NCBI GenBank assembly: GCA_964474895.1
Contig: CAYYUK010000003.1
Location: forward strand, 1-57,675
Source of the DNA: Candidatus Woesearchaeota archaeon
Lineage (GTDB): Archaea > Nanobdellota > Nanobdellia > SCGC-AAA011-G17 > PNOQ01
Length of the DNA stretch: 57,675 nt
Reading direction: 5' to 3'
The notes below the pieces were generated by a model. That model was not told where the DNA came from, searched no databases, and saw only the letters and a program-made list of their open reading frames with translations. Both the position numbers and the translations under genes were made by a program. This document shows positions 1-43,858 of the stretch, one piece after another. Position 1 is the stretch's first letter, and every line of letters begins with the position of its first letter.

Positions 1-3000
1 TGAAGAATCTGCTAGATTCTTCTGCATCTAGTGAATTTCCTCCTCCGCCCCCACCTCCGGTGGAGCCACCAGAATCACCAGGATCATCCCCATTGGGAGA
101 AACCGGATCAATTACATTTACATCTTGTGTAGTATTAGCTGTTTGATTTGTATTGCCTGCACTTGGTTGAGAAACTATTATTTGTACACCAGTATCAACA
201 CCGCTTGGAAGATCAACCAAGATACTATGATAATCATAAGCATTAGCAGAAATATTATCAAAAGACCGATTCAAAAGACTGTCAGTTGTCCACTCTGCTG
301 GCAATGTAATCAGATTGCTAACGTTTGTAGCGGTTTCATTTCCAAGATTCATAACTTTAACAGTATAGTTAATATCTGTATCGCCAACCAATGCAGAAGC
401 ACTATAAGTTGTAAACCCTGTCCAAATATAGGGTCCGGCCTGATAAGAAACAATATCACCTGAAGAAGTCCTACTTTCCATGTCAGCAGCGGAGCCATTT
501 CCATGTGTGGAAGTAATAACTAAAGAATACAAACCAACATCAGTAGGAAGACTAGCATTAACTTCTAAAGTAGTTGTATTCTCTGCAGAAACTTCCACAA
601 CAAATGGCTCTAAGGAACCATTAAAATAAATCCAATCAGATTTTGTAGAAGTTAAGGTAAAATTAACAACATAATCTGCAGTATTATTTATGGTTAAATT
701 TAAAATATTAATGTTAGTTCCAATTTTTCCAGAAACGGCCTCAAAGGAAGAAGGTGTCATACCCCATGTCAAGTCATAATCAACTAATATTGTTGTATTT
801 TCAGTAAGATTATTATTACCTGTCGAATCTGAAGCATTTATTCTATATGTATAATTTCCCTGATTAACAGCAGAAAAATTAGCAATGTAACTAACACCTG
901 ACACTAGAGACATATTTAATTCTATCCAATTAGAGGTAGAATTTTTGTATTGCAAAACAACACTACTAATATTTATTTTATCAACGACATCAGCAGTAAC
1001 ATTAACAATTACACCAGGATCTAAGTCATCTGCAGTATCTGGAATGTTTGTAATGTTCTCTACATAGGGTGGAGTAACATCGCTAATATTAAAATGTATT
1101 AAAGGAGTAAAATTTATATTATTACCAATATCTTTAGCGTAAAATTTACAATATGAATTAAATACTTTTAAATCACTATAAGGAATAGTATAATTAACCC
1201 AACTCTCGTTGTTATCCAAGGAAATAGTATGATTTATAGCAGTTCCAGTAGCATTGGTTTCAACATAACCTTCTTTTAACCTAAGATCATCAGACCAGTA
1301 AGAGTAACAAGTAACATTCTGACTATCATTAATTAATTCTGGAGTTTTGTTATACTCTGAATAATATGGATAAGCTGTATCTCCATAGTTTACGTCACCA
1401 ATAGAATAACTCACCTCATTAGAAAGGACACTATAAGTGTCATTCATAGTTCCATAACCATCTTCACCATCCCAAAACAGTCTGGCTATTTTAGTAGTGT
1501 AAGAACTTCCATTGGAAACAGGTGTAGCAAGAGCTGAAATAAGATATCTTGTATATGATTCTCTTGCAGATTGATCATTGAAATAAATTTTTGGTTCTTC
1601 TTCAGTATTAATTGTTCTATTCAAAAAAACATCACCAATAGAAGTTTTGTCATTATCATTATAAACGCCAATCCAAGTCATATTGACATTTAAATTGGTA
1701 AAATCTGGACCATTCCCAACTGTTAAATTATTTTCAGAAACAGTTCCGTTAGCATATCCCCAGGCAACTTTAGTGAATGTGCCATCTTCGTAAATAACAT
1801 AATAGTCTACCAATTCACTTACAGTGTAATCATTCAAAAAGTCTAGGCTTGTTTCATAAACAAAATAATTATTTTTTGAATACGTCCAATAAGTTTGATT
1901 AAATGGTAACTCCGTATTATGAACCCCTCCAGAAGAACTCAAATAACCTGAAATAGTATACTTATTAAAAATGGGCCCTGAGTACTCAAGATTTACATTT
2001 GGTGTCTGATCATTCTCTGCTGCATAAATTGCAGGGGGACTCGTAAACACATAAGGGGAAGCTTGCATAGGATCATCTCCAGCTAAATTTGGTACGCTTC
2101 CTTGTTTAGTCCAAGCAGAATCCATTAACCCGCCATCATCAGAATCAGTTCTGATAACATAATAAGAATTGTTAAAGAACCTATAATTACTAGTAGTAGT
2201 ATAAGTTTCCAAATCAGTACCATAACTTGTATTTTCAGTAGCAACATCGTTATAGTGAACATAATAAGTTCTATTCGCTCCTTTGCTAAAAGAGGCAAGC
2301 CAAACAACATTTATAGAAGTAGTCGTACCATTTGTAGATGTGTAATTGTAAGTTTGAGAAGGAATCTCTGTATGAATAGTTCCATTATAAGATGTAATTC
2401 TTATAGAATCATTATATGTACTTTCACTCAAATTAATATTAACATCCACGGGATAAAAATATCTTTCAGTAACATTTGGTTCAGTTATATTTATTTCTTT
2501 ACTATACACAAAAATATTACTATTATTATCTGTAAAATTATCTTGCCAATTTGCCCCCCCATAAAAAGAATATTCAAAAGTTTCAGAATCAGTACTATTA
2601 GAATAAATAGCAACATCAAAAAATCCAGCAGTACCATCTAGAATATAATCTAAAGAGTAAACCAAACCATTTTCATTATCCATAATAGTCTTATCAAAAA
2701 TATTATTGCCATCAGAGTCATTAACAACTATTCTAGGATATCCCTCATAGGCATTATAGACAAAAGTTTTTAGTTTGCTATCCTCGTTTTCAGCAAAAAA
2801 AGATTTGGAACTGTTGTCCACATCATATGTTTTAAACCAAACAATATTTGGAGCAATAGAAAAGCCAACATCTGTGTCATTAATAAAATTATATCCCGTC
2901 AAATTAAAAGCAGAAGCAGTAATGTTAAATGGTCCACCAACATCAGTACCATTAATTGTATAATTATACTCCCAAAGCTCTGCGTCTCCACCAGTACCAT

Positions 3001-6000
3001 TTATCATACTAAAGATAACTGATGTACCATTAACAAAATTAATCGTAACATTTACAGCACTGATCAAATCAGGACGTTTAGATTCATTAACTCTTATTGT
3101 CAAGATGTCATTAGCACTATAATCCATAGCAGAAGGATAATTAGCCAAGATTGTAATCAATGGCCAGTCTTCCAAAACAATACTTATAATCTTACTAGAA
3201 CTCATATTGGCAACGTTAGATCCCGAAAAGTGTTCTGATTCTGTGGCATCAAATGTATGATTATTATAATAAGTTTTTCCCAAATTATCATTACCACTCC
3301 TAACACCAACATATTCTCTAAGTGGCATCGGAGAAGTTAACCCGTCAGAATCAGTAGTCTCATTTCCAACCAATGTAGATGTGTTATCATAAGCTAAGAC
3401 CGTAGCATTATCAACTTGACCATTAGTATTAGAAACATTTACTATACCATACCAAAGTCTTTCAACAGTAGAGTAATCATCTCTTAGATAAAGTGCATCG
3501 TCGTCATAACTAGAATTCAAAAAGTAAAAGTATGAATTAGCCGCAATAGAACCTAACAAACGATAATCATATATTGAATCAGTATCAACAATTTTATTAT
3601 TTGCAAAATCTGTTTGCCTTATTTTGCTATAAGACATATAAAAACCAGAATACCCGCTCTCAAGAATATTATCTGTAAATGTATTATTATGGCTATACGA
3701 ATAAACTATGGATGAACCGCCAGTGTTATTCACAACATTGCCTGAAAAATTATTATAACTAGAATAACTTAAATATATGCCTGCATCAGTATCCCAATTT
3801 GAAGTAGTGCCTGAAGTAATATTATTCCCAACAAATTGATTATATGTTGCATCATCCAAATAAACACCACGATAATGATAACTACTTAATGAATTATTCA
3901 CAATTCTATTGGCAGTAGACGCCTGATAAATATAAATCCCATAATAATTGCCATTTCCAAGAGCTCCCCAAACATAATTGTTAGTAATATTAACATTTTG
4001 TGTACCACCTAAAACCAAGATTCCTGAAGCAGTACCATTAATTACATTACTATCAACAACACCTCCTTCAATATCATTCAATCCTAGACCGTTATCATTT
4101 GACGTTCCAGAAAGAATGGTATTATTGGCTAAAATTAAATCGGTGGCTATAGATACATACGTACCATAACCATTACCAGCCCTAATCGTATTATTAATTA
4201 TCTTAGTATTTGTATTGGTGCTAACAACATAAAGTCCATTAGTTGCACCTTGTATAACATTATTAATAAAAGTATTATTTACAGAAGTTGAAGTCAGCAA
4301 ATAAGCTCCAATCTCTGCAGTAGAATTCAAGATATTAGAATCAACATAATTATTATGAGAGTCACTTTCAAGCCTTAATGCAGTATATCTTGAAGTTATA
4401 TTATTTTCAGTAATGTTATTTCCACCAGAACCTAAATATGCCCTAATTCCATAATGATTTCCTCCAGAAGTGCTCTTCAATAAATTTCTATAAAATACAT
4501 TATCCCCGCAATGATCATTTAGATAAATTACATAAGAATTAGTAGAAATAGCTGAATTATTTATATAATAATTATTAGAAGAATAAGAAACAACATAAAA
4601 AGAATAACTGTAAGAAGTTATATTATTACCAACCATCCTATTACCCGTTGCATAGTTGTTTATGTACACCCCATAAGCAGTTGAAGAATCAATCATATTG
4701 TTTGTAAGATTGTTATCTGTGGAATAGGTTTGGATGGAAACCCCGTTTCTAGAAGTAATGTTATTTTGATAAACATTATTATTGGAAGAATAATAATTTA
4801 GTCTAAATCCATAAGTAAGTGGTGAAGAAAAAGAGTTGTTTTCTATTATCGAATTATCCAAGTCATAAAATTCCCCGGCAGGATAGTCATTTTGACTACT
4901 TATTGCAGTATTATTGATGAAAGTTATATTATCTGCATACATCAAATAAATTCCCCTATCTCTATCCGTAGATCCCCCGACAAAAGTATTATTTGCAATC
5001 AGAACATTTACCATATATTGCATATTTGCACCATATCCATAGGTTCCAACTGCCTGACCACCATTAAATGAATTATTAACAATAGTAGAGTTATCCATAT
5101 AACCTATTTGAACACCATAATCTGATGATGTTGTACCCCCACTAAAATTTGAATTTATAATTGTCCAATTGTTATTCCTTACCTCACTACTATGCCAAAA
5201 ATATGCACCATATTCATTTTTCCCTGAAAAAGAGGAGTTCTCTATTCTCATATTTTGAACAGAATAAGTTAAAGCACCATCATAATAACCATTAGTTAAA
5301 TTAGAATTTAAAATAACTATATCGTCAGATCCTGAACCAACATAAAGATTCCTAGCAAACTCCTGAATGTTGCAATCTATTAATGTTAAACCGTCGTAAT
5401 TAACATTATTTATTATGACACCATATCCACTAGTATCATCATCCCCATCAACCACATGCCCCTGACAATTTAAAGTTACATTTGTTGCAGAAACAGTAAA
5501 GCAAGTACCATCATCATTTGTAATGTCTGCATCCAATAAATAAACTTGATTTGCAGTACTTAACGTTTGACAAGTAGAAATTGTAGCATCATTACTTGCA
5601 TAAGCAGTCTGACCTCCAAAATTAAACTCTAAATGATGTTTTCCCGGAGTCAAAACACCACTTATTTCAAATCCGGTTTCGCCATCACAAGCATAATTTT
5701 GGACAAAAATTGAATTATTACTAAAATCATACTCTACAAAAGCATCTCCACAACGAATTTCCAAAAATTCAAGATCTTCACCAAAAAAAGTATCGTTTAT
5801 CGCTATTATTCTCAAATCTGCTTGTCCAGTAGTATTAAACATAACAGTCCAATTTCCCCCAACAGTTGGATAAGACTGAACATTTAAAATTATAATCTCT
5901 AATTCATAAGTTTGGTTACTTAAAGAAGGAGTTATCCATTCTATGTAATCAACATTTCCATCTTCATCTTTATCATAAGCTATAAATTCTGCTTTTTCCC

Positions 6001-6757
6001 TTCCTTTTTCAGTAACATGATAAAGACCCAAATTTTCTTCTTTAATATTATTAACTTTGGTATACGTTAAAATATTTTCATAATGTTCTTCGCTTGATAT
6101 GATTATTTGTTTCTTCCAAGGATTAATTTCAATTTCTTTTGAAATTGGACCCGGCATATAATACTCAACTAATGCATTAGTAAGAGGTCCTTTAACCTTT
6201 AGAAGTCCATCAGAAAATTCTTCAAAAAATAAAGGATCACTAGGAGGCATATCTTCATCAACCATATCTATTACAAACTGAAAATTTTTATCTAAATGAT
6301 CGGCACCAAAAACAGAAATATCTGTAGCACTTTTTGGAAGCTCAACAGATAAACTAGATACTTCCTTATTCAACACTATTTTCTTTTCCCATTTTACTGG
6401 CTGATTAATCACAACATCATAATAGAAATTTGATATCTCTTTTGCTAATTTAATTGAATCATTAAAATCTTTTACATTGGGAGCTTCACTTTCTTTAGTT
6501 GGCTTAACTAGCCCAGAATTCCCTATAGAAACAAATTTATCATCAGACATTAACTCTGTAACATCCAAAAGTATATCTTCATTTTCACCCAATAAACCAT
6601 TGGCACCAAAAATTGTAGAATTCTCCAACAAGATTTCAGAATCATTCAAAAATGGACCATTGGGAAATGCATATGCAAAAGCTACAAAAAAGAAAACAAA
6701 AAAAAGCACCGGAAGGATTAGCTCTTTAGCTCTTCCTTTAAGATTAATCCTTATCAC
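1..6757 (-). CDS. Giant secreted/surface protein (>2250 aa, 3' end outside window): signal peptide, right-handed parallel beta-helix repeats, Ig/CARDB-like modules, poly-Gly linker
   Basis: Open frame from GTG 6757 (or ATT 6748, behind GGTGA) to the window edge. It is absent from the ORF track because it has no stop in the window; the frame was checked at several points. N-terminus ..LILPVLFFVFFFVAFAYAFP. N/S/T/G/Y-rich beta-helix repeats at about 3500-5500 (e.g. DNSIIENNSFSSPLTYGFR). CARDB-like YTVKVMNLGNETATNV, then GDSGGSTGGGGGGGNS near position 40. Many N-x-S/T sequons. Confidence 0.9.
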   Translation of the reverse strand, partial: MIRINLKGRAKELILPVLFFVFFFVAFAYAFPNGPFLNDSEILLENSTIFGANGLLGENEDILLDVTELMSDDKFVSIGNSGLVKPTKESEAPNVKDFNDSIKLAKEISNFYYDVVINQPVKWEKKIVLNKEVSSLSVELPKSATDISVFGADHLDKNFQFVIDMVDEDMPPSDPLFFEEFSDGLLKVKGPLTNALVEYYMPGPISKEIEINPWKKQIIISSEEHYENILTYTKVNNIKEENLGLYHVTEKGREKAEFIAYDKDEDGNVDYIEWITPSLSNQTYELEIIILNVQSYPTVGGNWTVMFNTTGQADLRIIAINDTFFGEDLEFLEIRCGDAFVEYDFSNNSIFVQNYACDGETGFEISGVLTPGKHHLEFNFGGQTAYASNDATISTCQTLSTANQVYLLDADITNDDGTCFTVSATNVTLNCQGHVVDGDDDTSGYGVIINNVNYDGLTLIDCNIQEFARNLYVGSGSDDIVILNSNLTNGYYDGALTYSVQNMRIENSSFSGKNEYGAYFWHSSEVRNNNWTIINSNFSGGTTSSDYGVQIGYMDNSTIVNNSFNGGQAVGTYGYGANMQYMVNVLIANNTFVGGSTDRDRGIYLMYADNITFINNTAISSQNDYPAGEFYDLDNSIIENNSFSSPLTYGFRLNYYSSNNNVYQNNITSRNGVSIQTYSTDNNLTNNMIDSSTAYGVYINNYATGNRMVGNNITSYSYSFYVVSYSSNNYYINNSAISTNSYVIYLNDHCGDNVFYRNLLKSTSGGNHYGIRAYLGSGGNNITENNITSRYTALRLESDSHNNYVDSNILNSTAEIGAYLLTSTSVNNTFINNVIQGATNGLYVVSTNTNTKIINNTIRAGNGYGTYVSIATDLILANNTILSGTSNDNGLGLNDIEGGVVDSNVINGTASGILVLGGTQNVNITNNYVWGALGNGNYYGIYIYQASTANRIVNNSLSSYHYRGVYLDDATYNQFVGNNITSGTTSNWDTDAGIYLSYSSYNNFSGNVVNNTGGSSIVYSYSHNNTFTDNILESGYSGFYMSYSKIRQTDFANNKIVDTDSIYDYRLLGSIAANSYFYFLNSSYDDDALYLRDDYSTVERLWYGIVNVSNTNGQVDNATVLAYDNTSTLVGNETTDSDGLTSPMPLREYVGVRSGNDNLGKTYYNNHTFDATESEHFSGSNVANMSSSKIISIVLEDWPLITILANYPSAMDYSANDILTIRVNESKRPDLISAVNVTINFVNGTSVIFSMINGTGGDAELWEYNYTINGTDVGGPFNITASAFNLTGYNFINDTDVGFSIAPNIVWFKTYDVDNSSKSFFAENEDSKLKTFVYNAYEGYPRIVVNDSDGNNIFDKTIMDNENGLVYSLDYILDGTAGFFDVAIYSNSTDSETFEYSFYGGANWQDNFTDNNSNIFVYSKEINITEPNVTERYFYPVDVNINLSESTYNDSIRITSYNGTIHTEIPSQTYNYTSTNGTTTSINVVWLASFSKGANRTYYVHYNDVATENTSYGTDLETYTTTSNYRFFNNSYYVIRTDSDDGGLMDSAWTKQGSVPNLAGDDPMQASPYVFTSPPAIYAAENDQTPNVNLEYSGPIFNKYTISGYLSSSGGVHNTELPFNQTYWTYSKNNYFVYETSLDFLNDYTVSELVDYYVIYEDGTFTKVAWGYANGTVSENNLTVGNGPDFTNLNVNMTWIGVYNDNDKTSIGDVFLNRTINTEEEPKIYFNDQSARESYTRYLISALATPVSNGSSYTTKIARLFWDGEDGYGTMNDTYSVLSNEVSYSIGDVNYGDTAYPYYSEYNKTPELINDSQNVTCYSYWSDDLRLKEGYVETNATGTAINHTISLDNNESWVNYTIPYSDLKVFNSYCKFYAKDIGNNINFTPLIHFNISDVTPPYVENITNIPDTADDLDPGVIVNVTADVVDKINISSVVLQYKNSTSNWIELNMSLVSGVSYIANFSAVNQGNYTYRINASDSTGNNNLTENTTILVDYDLTWGMTPSSFEAVSGKIGTNINILNLTINNTADYVVNFTLTSTKSDWIYFNGSLEPFVVEVSAENTTTLEVNASLPTDVGLYSLVITSTHGNGSAADMESRTSSGDIVSYQAGPYIWTGFTTYSASALVGDTDINYTVKVMNLGNETATNVSNLITLPAEWTTDSLLNRSFDNISANAYDYHSILVDLPSGVDTGVQIIVSQPSAGNTNQTANTTQDVNVIDPVSPNGDDPGDSGGSTGGGGGGGNSLDAEESSRFF

Positions 6758-6890
6758 CCTTTATTTTTTCTAATTCATTGCTAATAAATACTTCAACCCG
6801 CTTAGACAAAATAATCCCTTCTTCCTTACAGTATTTCATATAAGAATCATATATTCTTTTTTCAATTGAAAGAGTCACCTTTTTTTTCAT
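6744..6890 (-). CDS. Ribbon-helix-helix (CopG/Arc/MetJ-like) DNA-binding protein, 48 aa
   Basis: Hand translation MKKKVTLSIEKRIYDSYMKYCKEEGIILSKRVEVFISNELEKIKGDKD: alternating beta-strand KKVTLSI, helix, G turn, then a helix starting LSK. Below the ORF-track length cutoff. The stop overlaps the start of the giant gene. Confidence 0.85.
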   Translation of the reverse strand: MKKKVTLSIEKRIYDSYMKYCKEEGIILSKRVEVFISNELEKIKGDKD

Positions 6891-6901
6891 ATGCAAAAAT
6901 A

Positions 6902-6921
6902 TATACATACATGTATGTATA
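6902..6921. promoter_or_regulatory. Perfect 20-bp palindrome TATACATACATGTATGTATA, candidate operator of the RHH protein
   Basis: Exact self reverse-complement, 11 bp upstream of the RHH ATG and just downstream (minus strand) of a TATA-like TTTAAAAA at about 6930-6937. Confidence 0.7.
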
Positions 6922-6985
6922 AACCCACCTTTTTAAATAAACATAAATATTCACGTAAGTTTACTTTATAAATATTTCGAAAGAA

Positions 6986-8383
6986 TTATGATAGTTTTAT
7001 ATTCTTCAACCTAATAGATGGACCACCCATCCACACAGGAATGCCTTGCATAGGTTCACCCTTACCACAAGTTCCTGCAAAAGTCTTAAAATTATTCGCA
7101 ATCTCATCTACAGAACTCCAAAGCAAAGGAGTAGTTATTTCTAATGCAGGAGATTTAACTGGCTTAGTTATCTCGCCATTTTCAATTAAGTAAGCCTCAT
7201 TACCAACATATTTTTGATGATATCTAACATCATCAATATTCCACTCCATAAAATTTTTAATATAAACGCCTTTCTTGACACCACCAATCATTTCTTCTTC
7301 AGATATCTTTCCAGGCAACAACAAAGTATTTGACATCCTTATTATGGGCTCAACAGAAAATCCATTCGCTCTTGCAGAACCATTACTTTCAAGATCCATC
7401 TTAAAAGCAGTCTCCCTATTATGCATAAACTCTGTAATTAGCCCATCTTTAACCATAAACTTCCTTCTAGCTTTTACCCCCTCATCATCATACCCATAAA
7501 AACCAAAACTACCTTCAATAGTTGGATCATCAACAATGTTAACTTTAGAACTAGCAATTTTATGGCCTATCATGCTCTTCTTGATAAAAGACTCTCCTGC
7601 CTGTGCAGCTTCTCTCCCAAAAATTCTATCTGCCTCATAAGGATGCCCTCCCGATTCATGAACTGCAATACCAACAACTTCGGGTGCCAAGACAACATCG
7701 AGGTTATCTGTAGGAGTTTTAACACCAAACTTAATATTCTCCCTCAAAGCTTTTAGCTCAGCATCAATTTCTTTTTCAAGTTCCCATTTTTTAAACAACT
7801 CATATCCACCAACACCACCATGTTGTAAATTTCTTTGGATTATTTCACCATCCTCTTTCAATGTTAAAAAATAAAAGAAGTTTACTCTTGGTAACTCTGA
7901 ATAAATTTTGGAACCTTCCGTATTCACATAATATTTTTTAACATATTCATCAGATAAACTAAAATACTTGTGATCGCTTTTTAAATTTTTATTCAAATCA
8001 TTAATCAATTTAAACTTATAACTTGGATCAACATCTCTAATATCTATTTTTTGTGCAACTTTGGTATTTCCATTCATCGCTTTTGATTTTGAAAATTTAA
8101 TTTTTTCTGCAAGCTTATGTGATCTAACAGTTAATTTAAGAGATTTATCCAATAACTTTTTAACCTTATTTTTATCAAAATCATTTATCGCAATAAACCC
8201 AACATTATGTTTAATAGAAAATCTAATACCAATTCCTGAAGAATCCCCAAAAGAAGAAACTTCCGGAATCCCATCTCTCAATGTAAAACTAGAAAACTCA
8301 CCACTTTCAGCCCTAGCCTCAGCATAATCTACCCCATTCTTCAGTAAATAAGCAATTGAAAAATCTGCCATCTCTTGAAACAT
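6986..8383 (-). CDS. tldD: TldD/PmbA family metalloprotease (catalytic TldD type)
   Basis: AVHESGGH (HExxGH), DDEGV, HNRETA, RMSNT and C-terminal GTCGK..P...GGP motifs. Start set at ATG 8383, about 25 nt after a TTATATAA box. Confidence 0.92.
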   Translation of the reverse strand: MFQEMADFSIAYLLKNGVDYAEARAESGEFSSFTLRDGIPEVSSFGDSSGIGIRFSIKHNVGFIAINDFDKNKVKKLLDKSLKLTVRSHKLAEKIKFSKSKAMNGNTKVAQKIDIRDVDPSYKFKLINDLNKNLKSDHKYFSLSDEYVKKYYVNTEGSKIYSELPRVNFFYFLTLKEDGEIIQRNLQHGGVGGYELFKKWELEKEIDAELKALRENIKFGVKTPTDNLDVVLAPEVVGIAVHESGGHPYEADRIFGREAAQAGESFIKKSMIGHKIASSKVNIVDDPTIEGSFGFYGYDDEGVKARRKFMVKDGLITEFMHNRETAFKMDLESNGSARANGFSVEPIIRMSNTLLLPGKISEEEMIGGVKKGVYIKNFMEWNIDDVRYHQKYVGNEAYLIENGEITKPVKSPALEITTPLLWSSVDEIANNFKTFAGTCGKGEPMQGIPVWMGGPSIRLKNIKLS

Positions 8384-8450
8384 AGTCAACACAATTCAAA
8401 GCTAGCTTATATAATTTACTAAAGAAAAAAAGAAGAAAAAGAAAAAAGAT

Positions 8451-16386: not shown

Positions 16387-16481
16387 AAAATTTAAGTTTC
16401 TTAGAGTGATTACATACTACACTGACTTGAAATGCTTTCTTAGGAAGATTTAAAAACCAAAAATAAGTCAAATTAAAGTAC

Positions 16482-16565
16482 GCGGGAGTGCCGGAGCGGT
16501 CAAACGGGATAGGCTCAAGACCTATTAGCTTAGTGCTTACGCAGGTTCGAACCCTGTCTCCCGCA
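16482..16565 (+). tRNA. tRNA-Leu (anticodon CAA)
   Basis: Acceptor GCGGGAG/CTCCCGC, A73; arm ATAGG-CT CAA GA-CCTAT; long variable arm; own promoter GGAAGATTTAAAAA about 30 nt upstream. Confidence 0.95.
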
Positions 16566-42798: not shown

Positions 42799-43858
42799 TA
42801 AGCAAAACCTCCTTAACAGGAATTCTAAACAATCTACAGTATAATACAAAAAGAAAATTTAATCCATTTAAAATCTTCTTTAGAAAACTTCCACTTATTA
42901 TTCCAGAATCCTGAAACTTCCCGCTCATATGATTAAGAATATACTTATCATCCTCTTTTCTCCCTTTTTGCAAAATTCTCCTCCTCTCTCTAATTTTATC
43001 AAAATTTTTAATCAGCCAAGAATAAGATTTAATTTTTGACCCCATTTGTTTAGGAAAATAAAAAAAGTAGAAAACCTGAGAAACAAAGATTAATGGAAGA
43101 AGTTTAAACAAAGTTTTCTTCTCAAAAAACAAAAACAAACTCATGAGTCTATTTTTGGTTGCATGAAATGCAGATAAAGAAGTTTTAGTTCTTTGGAAAG
43201 TATTCTGACTCAAATGTGTATATGGAGCATCCAGCACTTTCATACACTTCCCACCCCTTAGATAAACAAGCAAACCAAGATAAATTTCTTCTCCGCCAAA
43301 AAAGTAATCTGCAAAAAATGGTTCAGACATAATAAAATCCTTATCATACATACAACCGGATCCGGTTAGAGCAACAGACTCTCTAAGCGCTTTACCTATG
43401 AGTGACTTATCAAAATAAGGAGCATCAAAAGCAACAGTGGTCAAAGTAGTGTTTCTTCCAGGATAACCCTCTAAAAAATCAGAAAAAGATCCATTAACAC
43501 CATAAACATTTTCATTGGTTTCCATAACCTCAATCAGCCGACCAATATACTCTTTAGGGATAACTGTATCATTATCAAAAAAAGCTACGTACTTAGATTC
43601 CTCTGAAGAATTCCTAAATCCAATATTACGACCTTCGGCAGAACCAACATTTTCTTCATTAAAAATCAATTTAATTTTCTCGTTCTTAGTATAGTTTCTT
43701 TTCAAAGAGCTAATAGCCTCTGGCTCAGAACCTTGATCAACAAGCACAATTTCAAAATTAGGATAATCAGTTATTAAAACGCTATTTATACAATTCAACG
43801 TCATGTCTAAGTTATTCCAACTTAAAACAACAACCGAAACTTTTGGAAACTCACTCAT
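42770..43858 (-). CDS. GT2 family glycosyltransferase
   Basis: VSVVVLSWN, LVDQGS, ENVGSAEGRN, FFDND, FFGGEEIYL. Confidence 0.9.
   Translation of the reverse strand: MSEFPKVSVVVLSWNNLDMTLNCINSVLITDYPNFEIVLVDQGSEPEAISSLKRNYTKNEKIKLIFNEENVGSAEGRNIGFRNSSEESKYVAFFDNDTVIPKEYIGRLIEVMETNENVYGVNGSFSDFLEGYPGRNTTLTTVAFDAPYFDKSLIGKALRESVALTGSGCMYDKDFIMSEPFFADYFFGGEEIYLGLLVYLRGGKCMKVLDAPYTHLSQNTFQRTKTSLSAFHATKNRLMSLFLFFEKKTLFKLLPLIFVSQVFYFFYFPKQMGSKIKSYSWLIKNFDKIRERRRILQKGRKEDDKYILNHMSGKFQDSGIISGSFLKKILNGLNFLFVLYCRLFRIPVKEVLLNEKRKSRLV

What the first reader, a model, noticed from the sequence alone, without database searches (positions are those of the whole stretch)
6744..6921. Unannotated RHH repressor, perfect palindrome and giant adhesin gene: a candidate autoregulated attachment operon
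Seen: a 48-aa RHH-pattern ORF whose stop overlaps the start of a >2250-aa surface protein, with the perfect 20-bp palindrome TATACATACATGTATGTATA 11 bp upstream, at the expected transcription start behind a TATA-like box. Known: RHH dimers (Arc, CopG, MetJ) bind short repeated or inverted boxes over their own promoters. Inference: a minimal switch controlling an expensive surface/host-contact protein in a DPANN symbiont. Neither gene is in the ORF track.
Basis: partly seen in the sequence, partly recalled or inferred. Interest (0 to 1): 0.7.

Follow-up and report, generated by a model that had tools for sequence, protein, structure and literature searches.

The report
Small repressor gene heading giant surface-protein operon
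A 48-residue DNA-binding (ribbon-helix-helix) protein gene sits directly in front of, and is translationally coupled to, a giant glycosylated surface-protein gene in a tiny DPANN-type archaeon, with its likely binding site on its own promoter; about 70 related archaeal loci share this pairing, and in some of them the small protein is fused to the giant protein's export signal.

Summary
On the minus strand lie a 48-aa ORF (6890-6744), a perfect 20-bp palindrome (6902-6921) 11 nt upstream, and an ORF of at least 2252 aa overlapping the small ORF's stop.

The small protein fits a ribbon-helix-helix (RHH) protomer. The evidence is a family-profile match to CopG (hhalign 80%, E 1.4e-5), an AlphaFold model with extended strand, helix and helix, and an invariant KVTLS strand and Ser29. 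Pfam scores fall just below threshold and Foldseek found nothing.

Synteny is conserved across about 70 DPANN loci. The RHH gene is overlapped by, or fused in frame (12 loci) to, a gene for a signal-peptide protein, often over 1000 aa.

The conserved cis element is not the palindrome. It is 10-bp-phased TAYRTA boxes, 19-fold enriched upstream of RHH genes. They are direct repeats in the nearest relatives and inverted here, and they overlap the core promoter.

Best reading (about 0.65): a CopG-like autorepressor of a leaderless bicistronic operon. DNA binding, the transcription start and an "adhesin" function are untested.

I found no paper describing this module. I rate it a new variant of a known kind.

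The parts
6744..6890 (-). 48-aa ribbon-helix-helix (RHH) family gene, first cistron; ATG 6890-6888, TAA 6746-6744
   Evidence: Translation. The homologues all start MKKKVTLS. hhalign to CopG gives probability 80%, E 1.4e-5. AF2 gives residues 1-10 extended, helix 11-24, helix 30-45. Pfam DUF6364 scores 24.8 bits and RepB-RCR_reg 20.1 bits, both just under cut-off. It is the only family copy in the window.
6902..6921 (.). Perfect 20-bp palindrome, the predicted operator: two TAYRTA boxes (TACATA 6904-6909, TATGTA 6914-6919) 10 bp apart; equally read as TACATAC / GTATGTA heptads in inverted orientation
   Evidence: The same boxes occur at the same promoter position in relatives L001, L008, L017, L061 and L023. 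Family-wide enrichment is 19-fold with 10-bp phasing.
6899..6921 (.). 23-nt perfectly alternating purine/pyrimidine tract that contains the palindrome
   Evidence: It is the longest in the window (next 13) and exceeds all 200 Markov simulations, maximum 18. Tracts of 20-21 nt occur before the RHH ATG in L001, L008, L017, L061 and L023.
6916..6923 (-). TATA-like box TTTATACA at -33..-26 from the ATG, overlapping the operator; candidate core promoter of a (near-)leaderless mRNA
   Evidence: Read from the sequence. In the family the TATA box starts at -29/-28 in 21 of the 40 loci where one was found, and 31 of 38 RHH genes lack a Shine-Dalgarno motif. Inference.
6930..6940 (-).
   Evidence: Read from the sequence. 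The choice between the two boxes cannot be made without transcription-start mapping.
6754..6758 (-). Shine-Dalgarno-like GGTGA for the giant gene, embedded in the 3' end of the RHH gene
   Evidence: 26 of 38 related split loci have an SD-like motif at this position.
6746..6748 (-). ATT, likely non-AUG start of the giant gene, sharing its last base with the RHH stop (ATTAA); the alternative start GTG 6757-6755 lies inside the SD
   Evidence: Relatives L010 and L006 have the same ATTAA junction. L010, L015/L027 and L023 have no canonical start codon ahead of the conserved signal peptide, only ATT/ATA/ATC 3-7 nt after GGTGA or GGAGGAG. Inference.
1..6757 (-). Giant surface-protein gene, second cistron (at least 2252 aa; runs off the window). 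It has a signal peptide (…VAFAYA|FP), parallel beta-helix repeats, sequon-rich modules, and a poly-Gly linker at residue 2233
   Evidence: Its C-terminal 960 aa is 33% identical to the complete 1720-aa RHH-linked protein of L061, which continues about 430 aa past its poly-Gly linker into a TM anchor and a Lys-rich coiled-coil tail.

Best explanation
The 48-aa protein is a minimal ribbon-helix-helix DNA-binding protein. It is the first cistron of a bicistronic operon whose second cistron is a giant (probably about 2,650-aa) N-glycosylated beta-helix surface protein.

**Inferred mechanism**
1. RHH dimers bind the two 10-bp-phased TAYRTA boxes of the 20-bp palindrome, most likely as a dimer of dimers on one face of the DNA.
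2. The site overlaps the core promoter, either the TATA-like box at -33..-26 or the transcription start. Occupancy therefore excludes TBP/TFB/RNA polymerase and represses the operon, giving negative autoregulation.
3. The mRNA is leaderless or nearly so for the RHH cistron.
4. The giant cistron starts from an SD-led, probably non-AUG (AUU) codon that overlaps the RHH stop. Its translation is therefore weak and coupled to RHH translation, and repressor output tracks output of the costly protein.

**Shown:** the sequence anatomy, RHH-type homology, conserved gene linkage, and conserved, phased cis boxes.

**Inferred:** dimerisation, DNA binding, the sign of regulation, co-transcription, and the start codon.
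For: **RHH identity**
- The best PDB sequence hit is CopG, aligned 1-38. The family profile against CopG gives hhalign probability 80%, E 1.4e-5, in register.
- 60 of 96 relatives hit Pfam DUF6364; 18 hit RepB-RCR_reg, 4 CcdA, 2 ParG and 2 RHH_5.
- The profile against PDB picks the archaeal-virus RHH SvtR (2kel, E 0.07) and ParG.
- AF2 with 51 sequences gives residues 1-10 extended, H11-24 and H30-45, pLDDT 78.6.
- V5, T6, L7, S8 and S29 are invariant in the 51 locus-derived sequences; across the 96 representatives only S29 is invariant and L7, C21 and E33 are above 90%.

**Linkage**
- All four close homologues are followed by an overlapping giant ORF.
- Most of the 68 related loci analysed (8 from DPANN MAGs, 55 from metagenome contigs, the rest from assemblies of the four close homologues) have a downstream ORF that overlaps the RHH stop by 1-20 nt. 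That ORF has a strongly hydrophobic N-terminus and reaches up to 2314 aa. In 12 loci the RHH is fused in frame to it.
- 26 of 38 downstream genes carry an SD inside the RHH 3' end, while only 7 of 38 RHH genes have an SD. The TATA box starts at -29/-28 in 21 of 40 loci. This is the classic archaeal pattern of a leaderless first cistron and an SD-led second one.

**Operator**
- TACATA/TATGTA occurs at 9.0 per kb in the 120 nt upstream of RHH genes (50 loci) against 0.46 per kb in 24 kb of other intergenic DNA from the same loci.
- TACATAC/GTATGTA occurs 20 times against 0, and TAYRTA-N4-TAYRTA 16 times against 0.
- Box spacings peak at 10, 20, 30 and 40 bp. Ten-bp tandem arrays occur in L050 and L016.
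- In the window's own clade (SH-aLRT 96), six members carry a 20-23-nt element between the TATA box and the ATG, against a maximum of 10 nt in 43 other loci.
- The boxes are direct repeats in L001, L008, L017 and L061 and inverted in the window and L023. No significant RNA structure is predicted (z -0.32). Both points favour recognition as DNA by a protein over an RNA hairpin.
- The site is unique in the window, consistent with a dedicated local regulator.
Against: - No experiment or transcript data exist for this locus; no metatranscriptome holds the region.
- The window protein scores below Pfam gathering thresholds (24.8 < 27.3; 20.1 < 21).
- Foldseek found no significant match for either model in PDB or BFVD.
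- The first AF2 model (5 sequences) made the N-terminus helical. Dimerisation could not be modelled.
- A 20-bp palindrome somewhere in 57.7 kb is only about p = 0.1 under a Markov-1 model.
- The exact palindrome is not conserved.
- In most distant family members the boxes lie upstream of the TATA box (-60..-110), a position also compatible with activation.
- The enrichment statistics treat related loci as independent.
- The in-frame fusions show a physical tie to the giant protein's signal peptide. The module could therefore have a role in biogenesis instead of, or in addition to, transcription.
Confidence: 0.65

Rival explanations
1. The RHH module is mainly a cytoplasmic partner or part of the giant protein's export signal, for example a targeting, holding or dimerising element or an extended signal-peptide n-region. 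The promoter boxes would then be bound by something else or be promoter architecture.
For: 12 loci and at least 8 database clusters have the RHH fused in frame, with only 3-8 residues of linker, to a hydrophobic segment ending in a signal-peptidase-like A-x-A site. Independent assemblies reproduce the fusions (L021/L022; L055/L056/L058; L024/L029). Linkage is to secreted or membrane proteins of many different folds, which suggests a link to export rather than to one function.
Against: A free 48-aa protein, as in the window, cannot act as a signal-peptide extension. The surface a DNA-reading RHH would use (K4, T6, S8 on the strand; the S29 helix cap) is the most conserved part. A specific, phased DNA motif co-occurs with the gene family, including at fused loci such as L028 and L055.
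Confidence: 0.12
2. The protein binds the boxes but acts as an activator or a dual regulator (as described for AvtR). It would recruit TBP/TFB at low occupancy, so the module switches the giant gene on rather than capping it.
For: In the larger clade the 10-bp arrays lie upstream of the TATA box, at -110..-33. AvtR, a tandem-RHH protein of an archaeal virus, both activates and represses depending on concentration (PMC5569661).
Against: In the window and its clade the boxes lie between or over the TATA box and the start codon (-31..-12 here; -22..-4 in L001). That is the position typical of archaeal repressors. SvtR also represses from a distal site by spreading (PMC5569661).
Confidence: 0.1
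3. The palindrome is a chance or compositional feature of an AT-rich promoter, or a hairpin terminator for the upstream tldD gene. The small ORF would then regulate something else or be non-functional.
For: Markov-1 simulations reach a palindrome of 20 bp or more in 11% of windows. A T5 run follows the palindrome on the transcribed strand.
Against: The motif is conserved at the same place in relatives as direct repeats that cannot form a hairpin. RNA folding gives z -0.32. The 23-nt R/Y tract lies outside all simulations. Enrichment is 19-fold against other intergenic DNA. The ORF is conserved at 52-72% identity with an invariant N-terminus.
Confidence: 0.05
4. The RHH is the antitoxin of a degenerate type II toxin-antitoxin pair or a mobile-element or plasmid copy-control remnant.
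For: Weak Pfam or NCBIfam similarity to RepB-RCR_reg/RepA regulators, and to CcdA in a few relatives.
Against: There is no toxin-sized gene: the downstream gene encodes a secreted protein of at least 2252 aa and the upstream gene is tldD. The protein has no C-terminal toxin-binding extension. The partner is always a signal-peptide protein across about 70 loci. The neighbourhood is housekeeping (tRNAs, aaRS).
Confidence: 0.02

Closest known systems
CopG (RepA) of plasmid pMV158, 45 aa, PDB 1b01/2cpg
   Same: It is an RHH-only protein of almost the same length, aligned end to end. It is the first gene of a bicistronic operon (copG-repB) that it represses by binding a pseudo-symmetric element overlapping the promoter as cooperating dimers (my knowledge of the CopG literature).
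   Different: The host system is bacterial with a sigma-70 promoter, whereas this is an archaeal TATA promoter with a probably leaderless mRNA. The co-regulated gene is a replication initiator, not a giant surface protein. The operator sequence is unrelated. Sequence similarity is marginal (24% identity).
SvtR (gp08) of Sulfolobus virus SIRV1, PDB 2kel
   Same: It is a small archaeal-system RHH that represses its own promoter and, most strongly, the promoter of a large structural (tail-fibre) protein gene, gp30 (PMC5569661). It is the best non-artefactual profile hit in PDB (E 0.07).
   Different: It is viral and its target gene is at a separate locus. Its binding site is about 80 nt upstream of the TATA box with proposed spreading. 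The consensus site differs (ATnnTTCAAnAnnnnnAAAATG).
Omega repressor of pSM19035 and other repeat-reading RHH proteins (Arc, Mnt, MetJ, ParG)
   Same: These RHH dimers bind short repeated boxes that can be arranged as direct or inverted repeats and are read cooperatively (my knowledge). This parallels TACATAC boxes that are direct in L001, L008, L017 and L061 and inverted in the window and L023.
   Different: Omega uses 7-bp contiguous heptads. Here the boxes are phased at 10 bp. No homology beyond the fold class was demonstrated.
CdrS of Halobacterium/Haloferax (cdrS-ftsZ2)
   Same: It is a tiny archaeal RHH gene co-transcribed with the structural gene immediately downstream (PMC7439475).
   Different: The downstream gene is the tubulin homologue ftsZ2. 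That family is conserved in Euryarchaeota. I did not test for sequence relationship.
Transmembrane transcription regulators (ToxR, CadC, TcpP type)
   Same: This applies only to the fused relatives (L020, L021, L028, L035, L043, L055 and others). They have a cytoplasmic DNA-binding domain, one membrane-spanning segment and a large extracytoplasmic part in one polypeptide.
   Different: The window's RHH is a separate soluble protein. The DNA-binding domain is RHH, not winged helix. The hydrophobic segment looks like a cleavable signal peptide (A-x-A), so the tether to the ectodomain may be cut. No such RHH architecture turned up in my literature searches.

Membership tests
Ribbon-helix-helix (MetJ/Arc/CopG) superfamily | About 45-residue unit ordered as N-terminal beta-strand, helix A, tight turn, helix B | tested here: met
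   AF2 with 51 sequences gives residues 1-10 extended, H11-24, turn 25-29 and H30-45, pLDDT 78.6. The strand itself cannot form in a monomer model.
Ribbon-helix-helix (MetJ/Arc/CopG) superfamily | Strand with alternating core-facing hydrophobic and DNA-facing polar or basic residues; conserved helix-B N-cap (Ser/Thr/Asn) after a Gly-containing turn | tested here: met
   The strand reads K4-V5-T6-L7-S8-I9, with V5, T6, L7 and S8 invariant in the 51 locus-derived sequences. S29 is the only invariant residue across 96 representatives, and G25 precedes it in the window's clade.
Ribbon-helix-helix (MetJ/Arc/CopG) superfamily | Significant sequence or profile match to an established RHH protein or family | tested here: inconclusive
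   The family profile against CopG gives hhalign probability 80%, E 1.4e-5. phmmer to CopG gives E 0.55, and the profile against PDB gives SvtR E 0.07 and ParG E 1. Pfam hits are only below the curated cut-offs. Foldseek gave no significant hit.
Ribbon-helix-helix (MetJ/Arc/CopG) superfamily | Obligate dimer forming a two-stranded antiparallel ribbon | not testable with these tools
   Only single-chain prediction was available. Natural tandem double-RHH chains (P0008-P0010) and tandem RHH gene pairs (L009, L026) in the family are indirect support.
Ribbon-helix-helix (MetJ/Arc/CopG) superfamily | Sequence-specific binding to repeated operator subsites | not testable with these tools
   The evidence is indirect only: 19-fold enrichment and 10-bp phasing of TACATA-type boxes upstream of family genes.
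Pfam DUF6364 (PF19891) | Score at or above the gathering threshold of 27.3 bits | tested here: not met
   The window protein scores 24.8 bits, E 3e-5, aligned 1-38 of a 70-position model. 60 of 96 relatives hit at E <= 0.01, best 1.4e-7. It is a related family but not a formal member.
Pfam RepB-RCR_reg (PF10723) | Score at or above the gathering threshold of 21 bits | tested here: not met
   20.1 bits, matching only the C-terminal 41 positions of the model.
RHH-type antitoxins of type II toxin-antitoxin systems (CcdA, ParD, RelB class) | Adjacent small toxin gene, and a C-terminal toxin-binding extension on the antitoxin | tested here: not met
   The downstream gene encodes a secreted protein of at least 2252 aa and the upstream gene is tldD. 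The protein is 48 aa with no extension.
Transmembrane transcription regulators (ToxR/CadC-like architecture) | DNA-binding domain and membrane-spanning segment in one polypeptide | tested here: not met
   In the window the RHH ORF ends at TAA 6746-6744 and the giant ORF is in the +1 frame. No slippery site is present in the 17-nt overlap. The feature is met in 12 related loci.
Parallel beta-helix repeat surface proteins (the giant gene) | Pfam Beta_helix/NosD repeats above threshold plus an N-terminal signal peptide | tested here: met
   Beta_helix scores 129.5 bits in 7 stretches and NosD 83.5 bits. The hydrophobic N-terminus ends in AYA|FP.

The most novel reading that the evidence does not exclude
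The RHH module may be half of an export-coupled feedback device for giant surface proteins.

In fused relatives it forms the cytoplasmic n-region of a cleavable signal peptide. Each successfully exported giant protein would then leave behind, or release by signal-peptide proteolysis, one RHH unit that can return to the TACATA boxes of its own promoter. The cell would in effect count exported molecules.

The split form in this window would be the same logic implemented by translational coupling. Its features are an AUU start overlapping the RHH stop, a leaderless RHH cistron, and an operator on the core promoter. Repeated fusion and fission by single-base frame changes at the overlap would interconvert the two forms.
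Probability: 0.2. Interest if true: 0.85.

Novelty: new variant of a known kind. Interest (0 to 1): 0.62.

Why it matters
DPANN archaea have tiny genomes and very few recognisable regulators. They nevertheless spend a large share of their coding capacity on giant surface proteins thought to mediate contact with hosts, and how these genes are controlled is unknown.

This locus gives a compact, testable regulatory unit:
- a 48-residue protein that could be made synthetically;
- a 20-bp site;
- one target operon.

It appears to be the general control module for such genes across Woesearchaeota-, Pacearchaeota- and Nanoarchaeota-type lineages (about 70 loci here; 401 database clusters at E <= 1e-3).

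The in-frame fusions of the same module to the signal peptide of the regulated protein are an unusual architecture for an RHH domain. They suggest a link between export and transcription. I found no paper describing either the linkage or the fusion. Other agents of this scan have independently noted the fused form in other genomes.

Tried and rejected
**Searches that were inconclusive or gave nothing**
- Foldseek of both AF2 models against PDB and BFVD gave no match better than E = 1.8. This is uninformative for a 48-residue monomer. It is neither support nor refutation.
- The first AF2 run, with a 5-sequence alignment, folded the N-terminus into helix A. It was superseded by the 51-sequence run.
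- Single-sequence and profile searches of PDB sequences gave only weak RHH hits. The top profile hit, a GlgA fusion partner, is a short helical coincidence.
- No metatranscriptome holds the region; three same-study RNA runs share 0.00 of the words. The window occurs in many marine DNA metagenomes.
- The 96-sequence alignment was too diverse for the search for related loci, so a 14-sequence alignment was used instead.

**Hypotheses considered and rejected**
- RNA hairpin or terminator: the fold is no better than shuffles (z -0.32), and the relatives have direct repeats.
- A regulon within the window: there is no second TAYRTA-N4-TAYRTA site. TACATAC heptads elsewhere (8 in total) are at or below the composition expectation and lie inside ORFs.
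- A second family copy in the window: none found.
- Toxin-antitoxin reading: rejected on gene context.
- Programmed frameshift joining the RHH to the giant ORF (the giant frame is +1). The +1 frame opens only after TAA 6763-6761, and none of the five overlapping codons allows tRNA re-pairing. It is not supported, and SD-led initiation at ATT or GTG is the simpler reading.
- The 54-aa reading of the small ORF from ATG 6908: rejected because the homologues start at the downstream Met.


Full report
**1. Observation**

All features lie on the minus strand.

- The small ORF is ATG 6890-6888 to TAA 6746-6744 and encodes 48 aa: MKKKVTLSIEKRIYDSYMKYCKEEGIILSKRVEVFISNELEKIKGDKD. A 54-aa extension from ATG 6908 exists but is not used by any homologue.
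- The palindrome TATACATACATGTATGTATA occupies 6902-6921. Eleven bases (6901-6891) separate it from the ATG.
- The giant frame opens after an in-frame TAA (6763-6761) and runs off the window start, giving at least 2252 aa. Its only canonical start is GTG 6757, a 14-nt overlap with the RHH gene. ATT 6748 shares a base with the RHH stop (ATTAA).
- The upstream gene is tldD (6986-8392), leaving a 95-nt intergenic promoter region.

Statistics on the palindrome:

| Measure | Window | Control |
|---|---|---|
| Longest perfect palindrome | 20 bp (next longest 14 bp) | 22 of 200 Markov-1 simulations reach 20 bp or more |
| Longest alternating purine/pyrimidine tract | 23 nt (6899-6921) | maximum 18 in 200 simulations |
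| TAYRTA-N4-TAYRTA sites | 1 | 0.13 expected |

So palindrome length alone is not decisive, but the alternating tract is clearly unusual.

**2. The small protein**

- Pfam gives DUF6364 (24.8 bits, cut-off 27.3) and RepB-RCR_reg (20.1 bits, cut-off 21).
- The best PDB sequence match is CopG, aligned residue 1 to 38 (E 0.55).
- A profile search of 1.84 billion representatives found 401 relatives at E <= 1e-3.
- Of 96 aligned relatives, 60 hit DUF6364 (best 1.4e-7), 18 RepB-RCR_reg, 4 CcdA, 2 ParG and 2 RHH_5. To my knowledge the last four families belong to the RHH clan.
- The 96-sequence profile aligns with CopG in register at hhalign probability 80%, E 1.4e-5. Against PDB it picks the archaeal-virus RHH SvtR (E 0.07) and ParG.
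- AlphaFold2 with 51 locus-derived sequences gives residues 1-10 extended, helix 11-24, a turn, and helix 30-45, pLDDT 78.6. This is the RHH protomer topology. A 5-sequence run had wrongly extended helix A to the N-terminus.
- Foldseek found nothing significant for either model. I treat that as uninformative for a 48-residue monomer.
- Across the 96 representatives only S29, the predicted helix-B cap, is invariant, with L7, C21 and E33 above 90%. Among the 51 locus-derived sequences V5, T6, L7, S8, Y14, C21 and S29 are all invariant.

I conclude that this is an RHH-type protein. It is related to, but formally outside, Pfam DUF6364.

**3. The giant protein**

- Pfam Beta_helix scores 129.5 bits in 7 stretches, NosD scores 83.5 bits, and there is a sub-threshold NPCBM_assoc/CARDB-like unit.
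- The N-terminus looks like a signal peptide (…VAFAYA|FP).
- It has 107 N-x-S/T sequons against 52 expected from composition.
- A poly-Gly linker lies at residue 2233, just before the window edge.
- Its last 960 residues are 33% identical to the complete 1720-aa RHH-linked protein of L061. That protein continues about 430 aa beyond its own poly-Gly linker into a helical module, a TM anchor and a Lys-rich coiled-coil tail.

The window protein is therefore probably about 2,650 aa and membrane-anchored at its C-terminus. 'Surface glycoprotein' is well supported. 'Adhesin' is inference.

**4. Relatives and synteny**

- The four closest homologues (52-72% identity, 46 aa) are all followed by an overlapping ORF that runs to the contig end, at least 1597, 1192, 539 and 127 aa.
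- A scan of GTDB species genomes found 8 loci. Six are titled Nanoarchaeota, Woesearchaeota or Pacearchaeota, one Nanobdellati, and one only 'archaeon'. This supports the DPANN assignment.
- A metagenome scan found 56 more loci.

My scripts gave the following:

- In 12 loci the RHH is fused in frame to a hydrophobic segment and a large ectodomain. Complete examples are 950-1649 aa.
- In most split loci the downstream ORF overlaps the RHH stop by 1-20 nt and has a strongly hydrophobic N-terminus. Sizes reach 2314, 1978+, 1733, 1720, 1364 and 1173 aa.
- About ten loci have a non-secreted neighbour instead.
- The partner ectodomains are mosaic; ten share detectable homology with the window's protein.
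- 26 of 38 downstream genes have an SD-like motif inside the RHH 3' end, while only 7 of 38 RHH genes have one.
- The TATA box starts at -29/-28 from the RHH ATG in 21 of 40 loci.

This is the usual archaeal operon layout, with a leaderless first cistron and an SD-led second cistron.

**5. The cis element**

The exact palindrome is not conserved, but its boxes are. The close relatives show:

| Locus | Sequence immediately before the ATG | Arrangement |
|---|---|---|
| L001 | TTTAAATATACATACGTATACATACAAG-ATG | two direct TATACATAC copies, 10-bp period |
| L008 | CATACATACGCGTACATACACT-ATG | direct |
| L017, L061 | same design as L001 | direct |
| L023 | TACATA-TACG-TATGTA | inverted, like the window's TACATA-CATG-TATGTA |
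| L015, L027 | TGTACGTACA at -12..-3 | 10-bp perfect palindrome |

- In the RHH tree the window sits in a 12-member, split-only clade (SH-aLRT 96). Six members of this clade carry a 20-23-nt perfectly alternating R/Y element within 45 nt of the ATG. Forty-three loci of the other clade reach at most 10 nt.
- I compared the 120 nt upstream of RHH genes (50 non-redundant loci) with 24 kb of other intergenic DNA from the same loci:

| Motif | Upstream of RHH genes | Other intergenic DNA |
|---|---|---|
| TACATA/TATGTA | 9.0 per kb | 0.46 per kb (19-fold lower) |
| TACATAC/GTATGTA | 20 occurrences | 0 |
| TAYRTA-N4-TAYRTA | 16 occurrences | 0 |
| Generic TATA-type words | 3-5-fold enriched | baseline |

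- Box-to-box spacings peak at 10, 20, 30 and 40 bp.
- Tandem Repeats Finder reports 4.9 copies of a 10-bp unit in L050 and 6.3 copies in L016.
- In the larger clade the arrays lie upstream of the TATA box. In the window's clade they lie between or over the TATA box and the start codon.
- The orientation can flip and the RNA has no significant fold (z -0.32). Both point to recognition as double-stranded DNA on one helical face.
- Ten-bp phasing and the strongly conserved KVTLS strand fit cooperative RHH dimers. RHH proteins binding multiple operator sites and spreading toward BRE/TATA are described for SvtR and AvtR (PMC5569661).

Caveat: related loci are not independent samples, so the Poisson p-values are not to be taken literally.

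**6. Promoter geometry in the window**

Two readings are possible.

- *Reading (i).* The distal TTATTTAAAAA (6940-6930, -50..-40) places the transcription start near 6910, inside the palindrome, with a roughly 20-nt leader lacking an SD.
- *Reading (ii).* TTTATACA (6923-6916, -33..-26) overlaps the left arm of the palindrome and gives a leader of about 4 nt, essentially leaderless. This matches the family pattern.

Either way, a protein bound at 6902-6921 would occlude core promoter elements, which favours repression.

**7. The junction**

- The SD GGTGA (6758-6754) is followed after 5 nt by ATT 6748. GTG 6757 lies inside the SD.
- L010 and L006 have the same ATTAA stop/start junction.
- L010, L015/L027 and L023 have no canonical start ahead of their conserved signal peptides. 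They have only ATT, ATA or ATC 3-7 nt after GGTGA or GGAGGAG.
- I considered a programmed +1 frameshift that would recreate the fused protein. I found no re-pairing site in the 17-nt open overlap.

**8. The fusions**

- In the fused proteins, RHH helix B is followed within 3-8 residues by Lys/Arg, a hydrophobic stretch, and an A-x-A-type site (VSA|A, ASA|A, VSA|T and others). The RHH thus occupies the n-region of what looks like a cleavable signal peptide.
- Independent assemblies reproduce the fused frames: L021/L022, L055/L056/L058 and L024/L029.
- Three different ectodomain types are involved. One of them (…STQGDFNNGTY…) also occurs in split loci of the window's clade (L001, L061).
- Fusion or fission at the overlap has therefore happened within homologous partner lineages. 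The RHH tree cannot resolve how many times; between 1 and 4 changes are compatible.
- This Rosetta-stone link shows that the RHH and the surface protein function together. It also motivates the more novel reading of an export-coupled or membrane-tethered autoregulator.
- Tandem RHH gene pairs (L009, L026) and single-chain double RHH proteins (P0008-P0010) parallel AvtR-type tandem RHH proteins.

**9. Comparison with known systems and novelty**

In operation this is closest to CopG: same size, first gene of the operon it represses, and an operator over the promoter. It also resembles SvtR, an archaeal-system RHH that represses itself and a large structural-protein gene.

It differs in four ways:
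- the archaeal leaderless promoter;
- the 10-bp-phased TAYRTA boxes;
- the dedicated link to giant secreted proteins;
- the existence of signal-peptide fusions.

Full-text searches for RHH with DPANN, for DUF6364, for membrane-anchored RHH, and for DPANN giant surface proteins with regulators found no description of this module. Notes of other agents in this scan report the fused form in other genomes. I found the fusions independently before reading those notes, and they are not independent evidence.

I rate it a new variant of a known kind.

**10. Limits**

- No binding, structural or transcript data exist for this locus.
- The window cuts off the giant gene.

My confidence in the autorepressor-operon model is about 0.65.

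Noticed in passing
window 6744-6760; L010 1420-1470; L006 1170-1200; L015 6120-6150; L023 2860-2900: The giant gene and its homologues in the window's clade lack a canonical start codon ahead of the signal peptide. An ATT, ATA or ATC codon sits 3-7 nt after a strong SD (GGTGA or GGAGGAG). In the window, L010 and L006 the RHH stop and the ATT share a base (ATTAA). This suggests conserved weak non-AUG initiation coupled to RHH termination.
   Followed up: partly
L020, L021/L022, L024/L029, L028, L035, L043, L055/L056/L058, L072 (RHH at the N-terminus of each match); proteins P0040, P0043, P0050, P0104, P0106, P0107, P0131, P0136: The RHH domain is fused in frame to a hydrophobic, A-x-A-terminated signal-peptide-like segment of surface proteins of 950-1649 aa. 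The fusion is reproduced in independent assemblies and with three different ectodomain types.
   Followed up: partly
L009 5870-6138; L026 1290-1558; proteins P0008, P0009, P0010: Tandem pairs of RHH-family genes occur (ATGA overlap in L009), as do single chains carrying two RHH units. The latter are reminiscent of the tandem-RHH regulator AvtR of an archaeal virus.
   Followed up: no
L050 6454-6502; L016 1423-1488; also L052, L070: Arrays of 5-6 tandem 10-bp units (TATATGGAAG; TGTAAGTATA) lie immediately upstream of the TATA box of RHH genes in the larger clade. These are probably multi-dimer operators. They sit upstream of the TATA box, unlike in the window.
   Followed up: partly
window 1-60 (C-terminal end of the giant ORF at the window edge); L061 7122-12284: RHH-linked giant proteins share a C-terminal design: a poly-Gly linker, a conserved beta module, a helical region, a TM anchor and a Lys-rich coiled-coil cytoplasmic tail. 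The window cuts its protein just after the poly-Gly linker. No HerA/FtsK ATPase is seen in the complete homologue L061, so this is not a SPEARE-type protein.
   Followed up: partly
L011, L013, L030, L033/L034, L049, L052/L054, L053, L060: About ten family loci have a downstream gene without a hydrophobic N-terminus (for example an ATPase-like and a methyltransferase-like protein). The RHH family is therefore not exclusively tied to secreted proteins.
   Followed up: no
window 16411-16417: A single TACATAC heptad lies in the intergenic region about 65 nt upstream of tRNA-Leu (16482-16565). A lone box is probably chance.
   Followed up: no
window 43354-43367 and 6168-6181: These are the next-longest perfect palindromes in the window, both 14 bp: AACCGGATCCGGTT and ACTAATGCATTAGT. 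The second lies inside the giant gene. Neither was examined further.
   Followed up: no
window 6500-7100: The region is found at full word share in many independent marine and seawater DNA metagenome runs from several studies. The organism is therefore widespread in seawater. No RNA run held it.
   Followed up: partly
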